The translations under genes were made by a program, and so were the position numbers. From the NCBI RefSeq assembly GCF_058153355.1, contig NZ_CM177019.1: a stretch of DNA of 64,000 bases; one strand, written 5' to 3'. Positions 2,354-22,121 of this stretch are shown here, piece after piece (position 1 is the first letter of the stretch; each line of letters begins with the position of its first letter). The notes beneath the pieces were generated by a model that had not been told where the DNA came from, searched no databases, and worked only from the letters and a program-made list of their open reading frames with translations.

Positions 2354-2617
2354 ATGGCTACTTTAATGGAAAAAGATTCTCTCCTGAATGGCGTAAGTCA
2401 AAATATTGCATTTTTATCAAATGTATCAGAAATGATTTACAAGTCCCAGAATGAAGAATTACAAAAGGAGATATATGAATTGGTGAGTTATAGAGACTAT
2501 TTATATTCAACAGGCCATGAACTCGTTGATTTCAAGGAAGGAGTATTGCGATTTCAGCAAGTTAGAAAAAAATACATGCAGGATCTAAAAGCGCTAGGTT
2601 ATCCCGCAACCAATTGA
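2354..2617 (+). CDS. hypothetical small protein in an AT-rich intergenic islet
   Basis: 87 aa ORF in a markedly AT-rich segment (about 2100-2790); no recognisable motif. Confidence 0.3.
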   Translation: MATLMEKDSLLNGVSQNIAFLSNVSEMIYKSQNEELQKEIYELVSYRDYLYSTGHELVDFKEGVLRFQQVRKKYMQDLKALGYPATN

Positions 2618-2797
2618 TAAATATGTCTTTATATTAATTTTAGGATGTGGATAACCTGCTGAAATTTATATTAAAAATGAAATAAAAATATTAAATTCAT
2701 ATCATGCTTGCGTTTTGTTCTCGATAACGCGTAATTTTGTTGAATGCTTTCTCCTGTGAATGCAAAACCAGGCAGTTTCCCGCCCGGCCTTCCTCAC

Positions 2798-4282
2798 TTA
2801 CGCATTCGACCAGCTCTGGATCGAATCTTCATTCCCCAGCTCACCATGCATCACTTCATACGATTTTTTCAGGATCACATCAGTGTGTTTGGTTAGGTCT
2901 TTGAAAATGCCTTTATTCATCGCGTCGTAGCGTTTGGCGTTGCTCTCAACAGGCATAAAGATATCTTTCACGCGAACCATTTTGTCGACAGCCGTTGCGT
3001 AATCCGGGTATAGCCCCAGACCTACCGCCGTATTAATCGCTGCCCCCAGGCTTGCACAACCGTTAATGGCGTTACGTCGTGCCGGAAGGTTGAACACGTC
3101 GGCAAAAATTTGCATAAACAGATCGCTGTTCGAACCGCCGCCAGTAATGATCACATGTTTCGCAAAGTGATTCATTTCATGACACATATTGTCGTAATTG
3201 TTCTTCAGCGTCAGCGTCAGCGCCACGCTTTCCAGTATCGAACGATATATCCATGCGTAATCCATGCTGGAATCAAAGCCGATCATAATCCCGCGTTTGT
3301 ACGGTTCCCACGGATTGGTCAGCCAGTCCAGCACCGTCATCAGACCATTACAGCCAGGCGGCACACAACAAGCTTTTTTGTTGAGCAAATCTTCCGGTGA
3401 AAGATCCTGCGCCCTGGCATCCTGAATTAACGATTCGCCTAGCATGTCGCGCAGCCAACTCACCGTCCACATGCCTTTGCGAATACCGTAACCTTCATAC
3501 AGCAAGGTTTGCGGAATAGAAGACATAATCGGCCAGTACGCTACCGGATCTTTCGGCAGTACTTTGCCGTTCATCATCAACGCGATGTAAGTGCCAAGAG
3601 AAATTACCGCAGTTTCATCATCCAGTAACCCGGCTCCCAGTGCTTCTACCGGTTTATCACTGGTGGTACAAACAACCGGCAGCCCAGCCGGGAAATGTGT
3701 CGCCAGCGCGGCTTGTGGTGTGATATGCCCAAGAACAGTGCCCGGCATTTGCACATCAAAAAGCATCTGTTGGGGAATATTAAACTTCTCCATTACCGCG
3801 GTATCTTCGCTCCATGCCCAGGTCTTATAATCCACCGGCCACTGACCAAAATAGTTGGCGATATTGTCTTTAAACTCGCCGGTTAAACGGTGTGTCAGAT
3901 AACCTGAAAAAGAGGTGACATATGCCACATCAGGATTGGTGTGCTCGTAGGGACGTGTTACGCGTGCATCCTGCCAGCTAATCAACGGCGCAGCTGGCGT
4001 GCCATCGGCTTTCAATAACGCACGGCAGCAACGGATAGATCCCAGACCAATGCCGACAATATCTTCTTTATTCCCGGCAAACTGGCTCATCAAATCGTGA
4101 CCAGCAAAACATAATGATGCCCATAAATCATCGTCAGGATGTTCTGCGGTATCGGCATCTGGAGTGTGCATCGGTTGTAATAAGCCTTTGCCTTCGCAAA
4201 CCACGTTACCTTCCAGATCGTACATCACCACTTTTGTGCTCTGACTTCCGCCATCAATCCCTATGATGTATTTTTTCGACAT
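2798..4282 (-). CDS. ygcE: FGGY-family carbohydrate kinase
   Basis: 494 aa ORF; N-terminal IGIDGGSQSTK kinase signature. Confidence 0.85.
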   Translation of the reverse strand: MSKKYIIGIDGGSQSTKVVMYDLEGNVVCEGKGLLQPMHTPDADTAEHPDDDLWASLCFAGHDLMSQFAGNKEDIVGIGLGSIRCCRALLKADGTPAAPLISWQDARVTRPYEHTNPDVAYVTSFSGYLTHRLTGEFKDNIANYFGQWPVDYKTWAWSEDTAVMEKFNIPQQMLFDVQMPGTVLGHITPQAALATHFPAGLPVVCTTSDKPVEALGAGLLDDETAVISLGTYIALMMNGKVLPKDPVAYWPIMSSIPQTLLYEGYGIRKGMWTVSWLRDMLGESLIQDARAQDLSPEDLLNKKACCVPPGCNGLMTVLDWLTNPWEPYKRGIMIGFDSSMDYAWIYRSILESVALTLTLKNNYDNMCHEMNHFAKHVIITGGGSNSDLFMQIFADVFNLPARRNAINGCASLGAAINTAVGLGLYPDYATAVDKMVRVKDIFMPVESNAKRYDAMNKGIFKDLTKHTDVILKKSYEVMHGELGNEDSIQSWSNA

Positions 4283-18604: not shown

Positions 18605-18770
18605 ATATTGCCGGATAAAATAAACGCCTCTGTCAGAAATGATGGGGGCGTTTTTATTTTGCGAGCCGCATTCCGGCATTTAAACGTGAATATAGCAGGG
18701 GAAATCAACAGTTATAGAATGGCGTCGGGTGCTTGAGGCTGTCTGGTGTTGAGCATTCGCGAGGTTCCAG

Positions 18771-18874
18771 ATGGACAAAAGCCCCAGGCGATATATCTAT
18801 CAACCTGAGGCTTACGTTCGAACCCAAACAATTCGAATGTTAGTCTCTTCTTTGCAGGGAGGCAAGACATGCTG
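18771..18874 (+). CDS. Mok-like leader ORF overlapping the hok start (translational coupling)
   Basis: ATG 18771 to TGA 18872-18874, overlapping the hok ATG at 18869; arrangement typical of hok/mok loci. Confidence 0.3.
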
Positions 18875-19021
18875 ACAAAATATGCCCTTGTGGCAATCAT
18901 CGTACTGTGTTGTACAGTACTGGGATTCACGCTGATGGTAGGCGACTCGTTGTGTGAGTTGAGTATCAGAGAACGTGGTATGGAGTTTAAGGCAGTTCTC
19001 GCTTACGAACCGAAGAAGTAG
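18869..19021 (+). CDS. Hok/Gef-family type I toxin (HokE-like membrane peptide)
   Basis: 50 aa [50 protein letters not shown]; close to my recollection of K-12 HokE (not checked against a database); below the ORF-track length cutoff. Confidence 0.7.
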
Positions 19022-19259
19022 CCACCACGCGGGGGTAAAACCCCGCGTATTGAATTGTGATGGTTTGGTCTCCTGCACCCTTTTTTTCATTTATATTGTT
19101 TTTGTGAATATTATGCCTGTGTTTATTATTTATATATATCACAGATGAAAATCATTGAATTATTCATAATGTAAATATTTTATTGAACGATATATATCAC
19201 AGATAATTTTTAATATATGCGTAAATATCCTTTAAGTTTTACTGAAGGATAAAAACATT

Positions 19260-20936
19260 GTGACTTTCTTTGATTTCTGGGGAAAAACCCGACGTGGCGA
19301 GAAAGAGGGTGGCGACGATTATCACCTTCTTTGCTGGCATTCGCTGGATGTAGCCGCGATAGGCTATTTAATGGTCAAAAACAACTGTTTCGGGCTGGCT
19401 GACTATTTTCGTCAATTAGGTTTCGCTGACACGGATCAGGCAGCACAATTTTTCGCCTGGTTGTTGTGCTGGCACGATACTGGAAAATTTGCCCGCTCAT
19501 TTCAGCAACTTTACCTGCACCCACAACTCAAGGTTCCGGAAGGCGCAAGAAAGAATTACGAAAAGATCTCTCATTCAACGCTGGGTTACTGGTTGTGGCA
19601 TCATTATTTAATTGAATGTGAAGAGTTGCTTCCTTCATCTTCACTCTCTTTGCGCAAACTTAAACGGGTAATAGATATGTGGATGCCCGTGACGACCGGG
19701 CATCATGGTCGGCCTCCTGACCGTATCGATGAACTGGACAACTTTCTACCTGAAGACAAAGCTGCCGCACGAGATTTTCTCCTTGAAATCAAGGTACTGT
19801 TTCCGCTCATCGAGATCCCTACATTCTGGGATGATGACGAGGGCGTTGAACTTATAAAACATCTTTCCTGGTATATATCTGCAACCGTCGTACTCGCAGA
19901 CTGGACGGGATCGTCAACGCGGTTTTTTCCACGCGTCGCACATGTAATGGATATTAAAGATTACTGGCAGAATGCTTTAGCTCAGGCTCAAAACGCATTA
20001 ACCGTCTTTCCTCCAAAAGCAGAAACCGCACCTTTCACTGGAATTAACACGCTGTTTCCTTTTATTGAGAACCCAACACCGTTACAGCAAAAGGTGCTGG
20101 ATCTGGATATCAGCCAGCCAGGACCGCAGTTGTTTATTCTGGAAGATGTGACTGGCGCAGGTAAAACAGAAGCGGCGCTTATCTTGGCGCACAGGTTGAT
20201 GTCTGCGGGGAAAGCACAGGGTTTGTTTTTTGGCCTGCCAACAATGGCAACGGCCAATGCCATGTACGATAGGCTGGTAAAAACCTAGCTTGCTTTCTAT
20301 TCGCCACAATCCCGCCCCAGCCTGGTGCTGGCACACAGCGCTCGTTCGCTAATGGATCGCTTTAACGCATCGCTGTGGTCTGGTGATTTTGTGGGGTCAG
20401 AAGAACCGGATGAACAAGCGTTCAGTCAGGGATGTGCGGCCTGGTTTGCTGACAGTAACAAGAAGGCGTTGCTGGCTGAAATTGGCGTCGGCACGCTGGA
20501 TCAGGCGATGATGGCGGTGATGCCGTTCAAACATAATAATCTGCGGCTTCTGGGGCTGAGTAACAAAATCCTGCTAGCCGATGAGATCCACGCCTGTGAC
20601 GCTTATATGTCGTGCATTCTTGAAGGGCTGATCGAGCGGCAGGCGCGTGGCGGAAACAGCGTTATTTTGCTTTCTGCTACGTTGTCTCAACAGCAGCGTG
20701 ACAAACTCGTCGCCGCCTTTGCGCGTGGTGCAGAGGGCCAGCAAGAAGCTCCGTTGCTGGAAAAAGATGATTATCCCTGGCTGACGCATGTCACGAAATC
20801 CGATGTGCATTCGCACCGGGTAGCGACGCGCAAAGACGTTGAGCGCAGCGTGAGTGTGGGTTGGCTTCATAGCGAACAAGAGTGTATTGCGCGTATCGAA
20901 TCGGCGGTAAGGTGTTCCCCGCGCCAGCGGGGATAA
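19260..20936 (+). pseudogene. cas3: cas3 (type I-E) pseudogene: in-frame TAG at 20286-20288 and 3' truncation into a CRISPR repeat
   Basis: HD-nuclease motifs (WHSLDVAA, WHDTGKF) and helicase Walker A (TGAGKTEAAL); ORFs 19260-20288 and 20325-20936 are in the same frame separated by one amber codon; the frame ends inside the first repeat; total about 557 codons versus about 890 expected. Confidence 0.75.
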
Positions 20937-21062
20937 ACCGTCGACAATGGATAAGTTGACTTCAGGTCTGGGGAGTTCCCCGCGCTAGCGGGAATAAACC
21001 GTGCAGTACGCCTGATGACAAACCAAGCATCGGGAGTTCCCCCGCGTCAGCGGGGGAACTCC
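20912..21062 (+). CRISPR. minimal type I-E CRISPR array: 3 repeats, 2 spacers of 32 bp; last repeat degenerate
   Basis: Repeats gtgttccccgcgccagcggggataaaccg (20912-20940), gagttccccgcgctagcgggaataaaccg (20973-21001), degenerate gagttcccccgcgtcagcgggggaactc (from 21034); spacers 20941-20972 and 21002-21033. Confidence 0.85.
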
Positions 21063-21083
21063 CAGCTCCCATTTTCAAACGCC

Positions 21084-22121
21084 TCATGACGCCTTCGCCA
21101 GTTCCTTCACTAGCGGTAGCATTATCCGCATAACGTCACGGCAGCGACGTTCTATTCTTCCAGGAAGCGCCTTATCAATATGCTGTTGATTATCAAGCCT
21201 TACATCATGCCAGCTATTTCCCGCCGGGAAGGCCGGTGTTTTTGCGCGTTGCTGATAACCATCCTTATTTCCAAGATTCCAGTTGGTCGCCTCCACCGAA
21301 AGTACCGCAATACCGGCTTTGTCGAAAACTTCTGCATCGTTACAACACCCAGTGCCTTTCGGATAGTTTTTATTCAAACCTGGATTTGTTGTCGCTGCAA
21401 TCCCATGATTATGCGCAATTGCCAGCGCTCGATCACGGGTTAATTTCCTGACAGCCTCTGGTGTATTTACACCACTATTAAAATACAATTTATCGCCAAC
21501 AATTAAGTTATCGAGATTAATCACCAGCAGCGTATTTTTCTTTTCAGTATCGCTCATGCGCTTGAGTAAATTCTCAGCGCCTAATTTCCCTTCTTCTTCT
21601 CCACTGGTTGCCACAAAACGAATACCATACTCGGTAGGCGTATTTTTCAGACGTTCAGCCAGTTCCAGCATGACACCTAAACCTGCGGCGTTATCATCCA
21701 TTCCTTGTAATGTCAGCCCGCCGAGATTGGCATCGGCGTCGGCATCGCTCAGTGGAGCGTACGTATCAAGATGCGCCATAATAATGATCTGCTGCGGCGC
21801 TTTGCCTTCATGAGCGGCAATCACCGTACTTCCCGTCACGTTGTGCCAGTTTTTGCGGTTATCGCGGGCGGTGTAAATATATCGGCTATTAAATGTCCGA
21901 ATATCACTGCGATAACCCATCTGTTGAAACTGTTGGCGAATATAATCGGCAGATAACATTTCTGCAGGAGTTCCGGTCATGCGTCCCGGAAAGAAAGTAG
22001 CAATATGTCGTGCCTGTGTATTAGCAAAATCACCAGGTTTAGGTGACGAGGCGTGTACGGGGAGAATAAAGCATACGCCGAGCGCCAGGGCAGCGGTACG
22101 GTGGCGCAATGCGGAAAACAT
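21084..22121 (-). CDS. iap: alkaline phosphatase isozyme conversion aminopeptidase
   Basis: 345 aa ORF with signal peptide; position next to the CRISPR array as in K-12. Confidence 0.85.
   Translation of the reverse strand: MFSALRHRTAALALGVCFILPVHASSPKPGDFANTQARHIATFFPGRMTGTPAEMLSADYIRQQFQQMGYRSDIRTFNSRYIYTARDNRKNWHNVTGSTVIAAHEGKAPQQIIIMAHLDTYAPLSDADADANLGGLTLQGMDDNAAGLGVMLELAERLKNTPTEYGIRFVATSGEEEGKLGAENLLKRMSDTEKKNTLLVINLDNLIVGDKLYFNSGVNTPEAVRKLTRDRALAIAHNHGIAATTNPGLNKNYPKGTGCCNDAEVFDKAGIAVLSVEATNWNLGNKDGYQQRAKTPAFPAGNSWHDVRLDNQQHIDKALPGRIERRCRDVMRIMLPLVKELAKAS

What the first reader, a model, noticed from the sequence alone, without database searches (positions are those of the whole stretch)
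20941..21033. Two retained CRISPR spacers of unknown origin
Spacers tcgacaatggataagttgacttcaggtctggg (20941-20972) and tgcagtacgcctgatgacaaaccaagcatcgg (21002-21033) record past invaders. In a locus lacking an adaptation module they are likely old and may help type the strain.
Basis: seen in the sequence. Interest (0 to 1): 0.3.

Follow-up and report, generated by a model that had tools for sequence, protein, structure and literature searches.

The report
Two old orphan CRISPR spacers
These are two genuine but stranded immune-memory spacers of an E. coli-type CRISPR array whose cas genes were deleted; one records a past encounter with an SSU5-like phage-plasmid, the other has no identifiable source, and the feature itself is ordinary.

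Summary
It lies between a truncated cas3 pseudogene and iap, the CRISPR2.1/CRISPR-I site of E. coli.

- **No cas module.** The 64 kb contain no cas1, cas2, Cascade gene or leader.
- **Spacer 1 has a source.** It matches the 3' end of a DUF6651 head gene, between portal and major capsid, in SSU5/pHCM2-like phage-plasmids. The match is 31/32 to 28/32. The PAM is AAG or AGG, and mismatches fall only at codon wobble positions.
- **Spacer 2 has none.** Phage, plasmid, IMG/VR, GTDB-representative and JGI metagenome searches found nothing. The one partial match is 24/32 to IncI1 sog, with the seed mismatched and a GTG PAM.
- **Both are old.** They are the two iap-proximal spacers in 7 of 5,426 complete E. 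coli genomes, and spacer 2 alone occurs in an eighth. No complete genome shares this cas3|repeat junction, so the allele is a usable lineage marker.

The feature is known and of low interest. One side observation is unexplained. In ten independent alleles cas3 is fused exactly to the 5' base of a CRISPR repeat, and the expected PAM is present in only one.

The parts
19217..20911 (+). cas3 pseudogene remnant (cas-E1 / O157-type variant). ATG at 19217. An extra T lies in the T-run 19237-19240. A TGG>TAG nonsense codon lies at 20286-20288. The gene is cut after nt 1695 (codon 565 of about 900).
   Evidence: tblastn finds Cas3 residues 8-564 at 93.7% identity. Translation shows the stop and the read-through into R1. 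The start and frameshift were compared with the reference. The +T is shared with 2013C-4282, WL297, LHM10-1 and VE-T9. Of the 24 fetched loci covering this site, only the window has the TAG.
20911..20912 (+). Deletion junction. cas3 sequence abuts the first base of repeat R1. The 3' third of cas3, cse1, cse2, cas7, cas5, cas6e, cas1, cas2, the leader and any younger spacers are missing.
   Evidence: Homology to intact cas3 ends at 20911 and intact cas3 continues TCAGGGG.... No complete E. coli genome covers the junction.
20912..20940 (+). Repeat R1, type I-E, the GTGTT form that accompanies the cas-EO (O157-type) variant.
20941..20972 (+). Spacer S1 (TCGACAATGGATAAGTTGACTTCAGGTCTGGG). Its protospacer lies in the DUF6651 head gene of SSU5/pHCM2-like phage-plasmids.
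   Evidence: 31/32 with AGG or AAG PAM in Salmonella plasmids and IMG/VR contigs of about 100 kb. 29/32 with AAG in phage SSU5 and E. coli pTB212. Mismatches fall at positions 6, 19, 21 and 24 only.
20973..21001 (+). Repeat R2, an old variant (GAGTT...CTAGCGGGAAT), identical in every strain that carries S1-S2.
21002..21033 (+). Spacer S2 (TGCAGTACGCCTGATGACAAACCAAGCATCGG), the terminal and oldest spacer. No protospacer found.
   Evidence: It occurs only in CRISPR arrays of 8 of 5,426 E. coli genomes. The G25 allele is in GF131 and SCU-172; the A25 allele is in the window and 2020CK-00188. The best non-array match is 24/32 to IncI1 sog with a GTG PAM. Searches found nothing.
21034..21063 (+). 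Degenerate terminal repeat R3 (GAGTTCCCCCGCGTCAGCGGGGGAACTCC). It contains a perfect 12-bp palindrome and lies just downstream of the iap stop codon.
   Evidence: 65% identity to R1. The minimum-free-energy fold gives a 14-bp stem.
21084..22121 (-). iap (alkaline phosphatase isozyme conversion aminopeptidase). This is the conserved right-hand neighbour that identifies the array as CRISPR2.1/CRISPR-I.
   Evidence: ORF. Homologous regions are annotated iap in all compared genomes.

Best explanation
The two spacers are the trailer-end (oldest) units of the chromosomal type I-E CRISPR2.1/CRISPR-I array, of the cas-E1 (O157-type) variant, in an Escherichia coli-group genome.

A deletion removed everything from nucleotide 1696 of cas3 through cse1-cas2 and the leader. 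It fused cas3 directly to the repeat in front of S1 and left an orphan two-spacer array.

S1 was captured from an SSU5/pHCM2-family phage-plasmid. The source is the last codons of the DUF6651 head gene, next to an AAG PAM. The source of S2 is not in any collection searched.

Shown here: the anatomy, the absence of cas and leader sequences within the 64 kb, the S1 protospacer with its PAM, and the sharing of these spacers across divergent strains.

Inferred from the established I-E pathway: the array lacks a leader promoter, Cas6e, Cascade and Cas3, so it cannot gain spacers or direct interference in cis. The spacers persist as neutral relics and lineage markers. If an E1 cas operon were supplied in trans, an S1 crRNA should still recognise SSU5-like elements. 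Its mismatches lie at positions 6 and 24, which Cascade does not pair, plus one or two positions outside the seed.
For: - **Array anatomy.** Repeats, spacing and chance expectation. Position between cas3 and iap, as in annotated E. coli genomes.
- **Missing module.** Only Cas3 residues 8-564 are encoded and no leader is present.
- **Decay of the remnant.** cas3 carries an extra nonsense codon found only in the window among the 24 fetched loci covering this site.
- **S1 source.** The match is 31/32 at E = 3e-5 in plasmid records that carry terminase, portal and capsid genes. It is 29/32 in phage SSU5. Four IMG/VR contigs of 60-107 kb contain it. The PAM is AAG or AGG. The match is in frame and the mismatches fall at third codon positions.
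- **Age.** The same S1-R2-S2-R3 block ends the arrays of SCU-172 (full cas operon, 3 spacers) and GF131 (11 spacers). Their sequence from the array into iap and cysD is only 93.6-95.1% identical to the window's.
- **Secondary loss of S1.** The last repeat of 2020CK-00188 is a hybrid of a canonical repeat and R2.
- **Literature.** Conserved ancient trailer spacers and frequent decay of cas-E loci are already described for E. coli (PMC2886076; PMC3903273).
Against: - Only 64 kb were visible. A second I-E cas operon, or an I-F system, elsewhere in the genome cannot be excluded.
- S2 has no protospacer, so 'invader-derived' is an assumption for it.
- Expression and processing of the array were not tested and cannot be tested here.
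- The best S1 match is 31/32, not 32/32, so the exact donor is not in the databases.
Confidence: 0.88

Rival explanations
1. S2 derives from the sog primase gene of an IncI1-like conjugative plasmid that has since diverged.
For: The 3' 24 nt of S2 match sog (annotated 'LPD7 domain protein', lying between nuc and traL of pEK204) at 23/24. The match is present in about 1,300 IncI1-type plasmid records. In the sog reading frame S2 is in frame: CSTPDDKPSIG against MTEPDDKQSIG.
Against: - The E-value is only 0.06.
- Seven of the first 8 positions, the seed, mismatch.
- The flanking trinucleotide is GTG, not AWG.
- Wobble-degenerate patterns in that frame found nothing in IMG/VR, GTDB representatives or JGI metagenomes.
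- The mismatch pattern is a solid block rather than third positions, which does not look like coding divergence.
Confidence: 0.15
2. The mini-array is still functional. It is transcribed by read-through from the cas3 promoter and used in trans by cas-E proteins encoded elsewhere or brought in by transfer, and it is retained by selection against SSU5-like phage-plasmids.
For: - R1 and R2 are intact hairpin-forming repeats.
- S1 keeps a near-perfect, PAM-flanked match to elements that are common in E. coli. One search found 234 plasmid places among the 5,426 genomes.
- Exchange of cas-E modules between strains is documented (PMC3903273).
Against: - There is no leader and no cas gene other than the broken cas3 in 64 kb.
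- The consensus scan found no promoter-like site on the array strand between 19130 and the array.
- The cas3 remnant carries a nonsense codon seen in none of the other fetched loci.
- In E. coli the I-E cas genes have a single chromosomal site, and it is the deleted one (established knowledge; PMC3903273).
Confidence: 0.06
3. The repeats and spacers persist mainly because the terminal hairpins, R3 above all, act as a terminator or insulator for the convergent iap gene. On this view they are not kept as immune memory.
For: R3 forms a perfect 12-14 bp G+C-rich stem about 20 nt beyond the iap stop codon. R3 and the trailer spacers are the most conserved part of all the arrays compared.
Against: The terminator scan reported no terminator-like site at R3 on either strand. 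This idea explains retention of R3 but not of S1-R2-S2. Other strains keep different trailer spacers.
Confidence: 0.08

Closest known systems
E. coli CRISPR2.1 (CRISPR-I) array of the type I-E system, cas-E1 / cas-EO (O157:H7-type) variant
   Same: The window shares the 29-nt repeat, the 32-nt spacers, the 61-nt period and the degenerate terminal repeat next to iap. It also shares hok/sok upstream of cas3 and the GTGTT repeat form. The AWG PAM of S1 agrees with the CWT acquisition motif reported for this variant (PMC3737337).
   Different: The leader, cas1, cas2, the Cascade genes and the 3' third of cas3 are missing. Only two spacers remain.
Degraded or orphan cas-E loci of E. coli and Shigella (Touchon & Rocha 2010, PMC2886076; Almendros et al. 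2014, PMC3903273)
   Same: A cas3 pseudogene is left beside a short residual array. Ancient trailer spacers are conserved across distant strains.
   Different: The published arrangements are explained by recombination between IS elements. Here there is no IS at the junction, and cas3 is joined directly to the first base of a repeat.
Arrays of E. coli GF131, SCU-172, MS 21-1, MSB1_4I and three OZ-series genomes
   Same: In GF131 and SCU-172, which were read in full, the S1-R2-S2-R3-iap block is identical apart from one base in S2. The other five match both spacers at the same spacing and identity.
   Different: SCU-172 keeps the full cas operon and leader. GF131 has 11 spacers and a different cas3|repeat junction. 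Their sequence from the array into iap and cysD is only 93.6-95.1% identical to the window's.
SSU5 / pHCM2 / pMT1-like phage-plasmids (target of S1)
   Same: The protospacer with its AAG PAM lies at the 3' end of the DUF6651 gene, between portal and major capsid.
   Different: No database member matches 32/32. The best is 31/32, with the mismatch at position 24.

Membership tests
Type I-E CRISPR array (E. coli CRISPR2.1/CRISPR-I) | At least two direct copies of the 29-nt I-E repeat with a palindromic core | tested here: met
   R1 has 1 mismatch and R2 has 2 mismatches to the consensus. No match occurred in 100 shuffles. Both form hairpins.
Type I-E CRISPR array (E. coli CRISPR2.1/CRISPR-I) | Unique spacers of about 32 nt with a 61-nt period | tested here: met
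   Both spacers are 32 nt and the spacing is 61/62 nt. Each spacer is unique in the window (for S2).
Type I-E CRISPR array (E. coli CRISPR2.1/CRISPR-I) | Chromosomal position between the cas-E operon (cas3 side) and iap, ending in a degenerate repeat | tested here: met
   The order cas3 remnant, array, iap, cysD is colinear with annotated genomes.
Type I-E CRISPR array (E. coli CRISPR2.1/CRISPR-I) | An A+T-rich leader with promoter and IHF site upstream of the first repeat | tested here: not met
   A leader from an intact locus has no match in the window. cas3 coding sequence abuts R1. The array is therefore a remnant, not a complete array.
[quoted passage not shown] | cas1 and cas2 (adaptation), cse1-cse2-cas7-cas5-cas6e (Cascade) and an intact cas3 | tested here: not met
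   tblastn finds only Cas3 residues 8-564, and that fragment carries an internal stop. This applies within the 64-kb window only.
Invader-derived I-E spacer | A protospacer in a mobile element flanked 5' by an AWG-type PAM | tested here: met
   This is met for S1: 28-31/32 in SSU5-like phage-plasmids, with an AAG or AGG PAM.
Invader-derived I-E spacer | The same criterion applied to S2 | tested here: inconclusive
   There is no match apart from 24/32 to IncI1 sog with a GTG PAM.
Functional crRNA source | Transcription of the array and Cas6e processing into 61-nt crRNAs | not testable with these tools
   This needs RNA data from the strain. No cas6e gene lies in the window.

The most novel reading that the evidence does not exclude
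The junction that orphaned these spacers may be the footprint of a site-specific, CRISPR-machinery-dependent route to cas-operon loss.

- Ten independent E. coli alleles join different internal cas3 positions exactly to the 5' base of a repeat. That base is where Cas1-Cas2 makes its first strand transfer. Microhomology is 0-1 nt.
- Three other alleles join cas3 or casA to one and the same cas2e nucleotide.
- The left ends cluster in hot spots.
- The obvious model is recombination between a cas3-derived spacer and its protospacer in cas3. It predicts an AWG PAM 33 nt upstream of the repeat, and only 1 of 10 junctions has one.

An untested alternative is that a chromosomal 3' end within cas3 is joined by the integrase to the leader-repeat junction or to an off-target site, deleting the intervening cas genes.
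Probability: 0.3. Interest if true: 0.6.

Novelty: already known. Interest (0 to 1): 0.2.

Why it matters
For the finding itself, little is at stake. It documents a decayed I-E locus of a kind already described in E. coli. It gives a compact lineage marker: the S1 + S2(A25) pair together with the cas3-1695|R1 junction, which is absent from 5,426 complete genomes. It also adds one spacer-to-target link. SSU5/pHCM2-like phage-plasmids were past targets of E. coli type I-E immunity.

The side observation could matter more. If cas loss in E. coli often happens through a precise event at the integration site, that would bear on how and why the species so often sheds this silent system. It would also give a sequence signature for finding such events in other genomes.

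Tried and rejected
**S2 origin.**
- blastn against phages found no hit at E <= 10.
- blastn against plasmids found only the partial IncI1 sog match.
- In E. coli genomes S2 occurs only within arrays.
- Exact 5' and 3' sub-patterns and a wobble-degenerate pattern found nothing in IMG/VR.
- The wobble-degenerate pattern and a sog-like pattern found nothing in GTDB species representatives.
- The wobble-degenerate pattern found nothing in JGI metagenomes.
- Full-text search for either spacer sequence found no paper.

**Spacer/protospacer recombination as the cause of the deletion.**
- The trinucleotides at -35..-33 before the repeat are CAA, ATG, GAG, ATA, GCG, CGT, CCA, GAA, TCT and GCT in the ten junctions.
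- Only one is AWG. The window has AAG one base out of register.
- No CWT lies just downstream of the breakpoints either.
- None of 113 unique spacers from 24 arrays matches a cas operon.
- I therefore downgraded this model but did not exclude it.

**Other rejected ideas.**
- Microhomology-mediated deletion at repeat junctions: overlap is 0-1 nt.
- IS-mediated deletion: no IS lies at any of these junctions.
- A non-E. coli species as the reason for the 92% cas3/iap identity: a few E. coli genomes match at 98.5-99.7%, so the locus is simply polymorphic.
- Rfam at gathering thresholds found only sok.

Full report
**Observation**

The region reads cas3 coding sequence, then R1 (20912-20940), S1 (20941-20972), R2 (20973-21001), S2 (21002-21033) and a degenerate R3 (from 21034). 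The stop codon of iap, on the minus strand, follows at 21084.

R1 and R2 differ from the E. coli I-E consensus GAGTTCCCCGCGCCAGCGGGGATAAACCG by 1 and 2 bases. They are the only such matches in 64 kb, against zero in 100 shuffles. The repeats form the expected hairpins.

**Context**

tblastn with the eight Cas proteins of an intact operon (E. coli SCU-172) finds only Cas3 residues 8-564 of 899. The leader has no match.

The cas3 remnant runs from 19217 to 20911 and has three lesions:
- An extra T in the run 19237-19240. Several related strains share it, including 2013C-4282, which has a full operon.
- A TGG>TAG nonsense codon at 20286-20288. The window alone has it among the 24 fetched loci covering this site.
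- Truncation after nucleotide 1695, where the reading frame runs into R1.

A sok antitoxin RNA lies upstream. This fits the cas-E1 (O157-type) arrangement described by Almendros et al. (PMC3903273).

The window belongs to the E. coli group but is not among 5,426 complete RefSeq genomes. The best identity over 25 kb is 98.9%. No genome spans the cas3|R1 junction.

**Spacer 1**

blastn finds S1 in hundreds of non-mobilizable plasmid records from Klebsiella, Escherichia, Enterobacter, Yersinia, Salmonella and Citrobacter, and in phage SSU5 and its relatives.

The target is the last 11 codons (STMDKLTSGLG) of a DUF6651 protein. Its gene lies between the portal and major capsid genes.
- The best matches are 31/32. 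They occur in Salmonella plasmids and in IMG/VR contigs of 60-107 kb, with AGG or AAG immediately 5'.
- SSU5 and E. coli pTB212 match 29/32 with AAG. E. coli p503025_100 matches 28/32.
- All mismatches (positions 6, 19, 21, 24) are at third codon positions.

From established I-E structural work, not tested here, positions 6 and 24 are ones that Cascade does not pair. AWG is the acquisition motif reported for this cas variant (PMC3737337). S1 is therefore a bona fide record of an SSU5/pHCM2-like phage-plasmid.

**Spacer 2**

S2 has no hit in the phage collection. In E. coli genomes it occurs only inside arrays.

In plasmids the only signal is 23/24 over its 3' part, in the sog primase gene of IncI1 plasmids, at E = 0.06. 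Seven of the first eight positions mismatch and the flanking trinucleotide is GTG.

Exact and wobble-degenerate pattern scans of IMG/VR, GTDB species representatives and JGI metagenomes found nothing. Its origin stays unknown. I give the sog reading about 15%.

**Age and typing value**

- Seven complete genomes carry S1 and S2 at the same spacing, and an eighth carries S2 alone. In GF131, SCU-172 and 2020CK-00188, which were read in full, they are the iap-proximal units.
- SCU-172 has a complete cas operon with three spacers. GF131 has eleven spacers and a different cas3 truncation.
- Both strains are only 93.6-95.1% identical to the window from the array into iap and cysD, yet they differ in the spacers by one base: A or G at S2 position 25.
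- Strain 2020CK-00188 is the closest relative for the flanks, at 98.6-99.7%. It has S2(A25) without S1. Its last repeat is a hybrid of a canonical repeat and R2. This is the signature of a repeat-repeat crossover that removed S1.
- S2 is one of three terminal-spacer classes seen among 24 arrays.

This matches the published picture of ancient, conserved trailer spacers (PMC2886076). It also makes the combination in the window a usable lineage marker.

**How it works now**

The array has no leader, Cas6e, Cascade or Cas3. From the known I-E pathway I infer that it can neither grow nor interfere in cis. The consensus scan found no promoter-like site on the array strand between 19130 and the array. 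The spacers are best seen as neutral relics.

**An unexplained side observation**

Homology to intact cas3 stops at 20911, and the next base is the first G of R1. I then compared other truncated alleles and found the following.

- *Repeat-fused junctions.* Nine further independent junctions join cas3 to the first base of a repeat. In coordinates of the SCU-172 reference locus they lie at 2548, 2822, 2838, 2907, 2921, 3023, 3398, 3520 and 3811. The window lies at 3046. Overlap is 0-1 nt and no IS is present.
- *A recurrent cas2e endpoint.* Three further alleles join cas3-2909, cas3-3389 or casA-4561 to the same cas2e nucleotide, 9682.
- *Other fusions.* cas3 is also found fused to cas1, cas5e and cas6e.
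- *Clustered left ends.* The median gap between left ends is 19.5 nt. A Monte Carlo test gives P of about 0.0005, though the statistic was chosen after seeing the data.

The natural model is that a spacer acquired from cas3 later recombined with its own protospacer. That predicts an AWG PAM at -35..-33, and only 1 of 10 junctions has one. None of 113 unique spacers matches a cas gene.

The repeat's first base is the site of the first Cas1-Cas2 strand transfer. An integrase-mediated joining of a chromosomal 3' end is therefore conceivable, but I could not test it.

I found no description of these junctions in the searchable literature. Published arrangements invoke recombination between IS elements.

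**Verdict**

One spacer's origin is resolved and the other is not. The kind of feature is already known and interest is low. The junction phenomenon is recorded separately as the most novel reading not excluded by the evidence.

Noticed in passing
window 20911/20912; loci L001, L003, L007/8/21, L009, L010, L012, L031/32, L033, L034: Ten independent E. coli alleles fuse different internal cas3 positions exactly to the 5' G of a CRISPR repeat. Microhomology is 0-1 nt and no IS is present. The AWG PAM expected for a cas3-derived spacer is present in only 1 of 10.
   Followed up: partly
L011 (1875), L019/L020/L025-27 (cas3 nt 2037), L028 (6282/6283): Three different left ends (cas3-2909, cas3-3389, casA-4561 in L013 coordinates) are all joined to the same cas2e nucleotide (L013 9682, ...|CTGGAAGTGCGTGCCGG). 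All three left ends finish in TA. No explanation was found.
   Followed up: partly
cas3, L013 coordinates 2548-3811 (window about 20410-20911 and beyond): Deletion left ends cluster. The median gap is 19.5 nt and Monte Carlo P is about 0.0005, with the statistic chosen post hoc. Repeat-fused and cas-gene-fused alleles pair up within 2-16 nt: 2818/2822, 2907/2909, 3389/3398 and 3508/3520.
   Followed up: partly
window 19237-19240 and 20286-20288: The cas3 remnant has a +T in a T-run. 2013C-4282 (full operon), WL297, LHM10-1 and VE-T9 share it. A GTG at 19260 could serve as an alternative start. The remnant also has a TGG>TAG nonsense codon found in none of the other fetched loci.
   Followed up: yes
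L003 2972-3000 (E. coli 2020CK-00188): The last full repeat is a hybrid of a canonical repeat (5' part) and R2 (3' part, A21). This shows that S1 was lost there by repeat-repeat recombination.
   Followed up: yes
window 21034-21061: The degenerate terminal repeat contains a perfect 12-bp palindrome (GAGTTCCCCCGC/GCGGGGGAACTC) about 20 nt beyond the iap stop codon. It may act as a transcription terminator, but the simple terminator scan did not call it.
   Followed up: partly
window 18727-18884: A sok antitoxin RNA (Rfam RF01794, 111.5 bits), part of a hok/sok module, lies between cysH and cas3. This is typical of the cas-E1 arrangement.
   Followed up: no
window 24000-48999: The best identity to any of 5,426 complete E. 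coli genomes is 98.9% over 25 kb of the mutS-hyc region, and some relatives carry about 6 kb more there. The source lineage is poorly represented among complete genomes.
   Followed up: partly
window 21026 (S2 position 25): S2 is polymorphic. The window and 2020CK-00188 have A; GF131 and SCU-172 have G. The partial IncI1 sog match has A at this position.
   Followed up: yes
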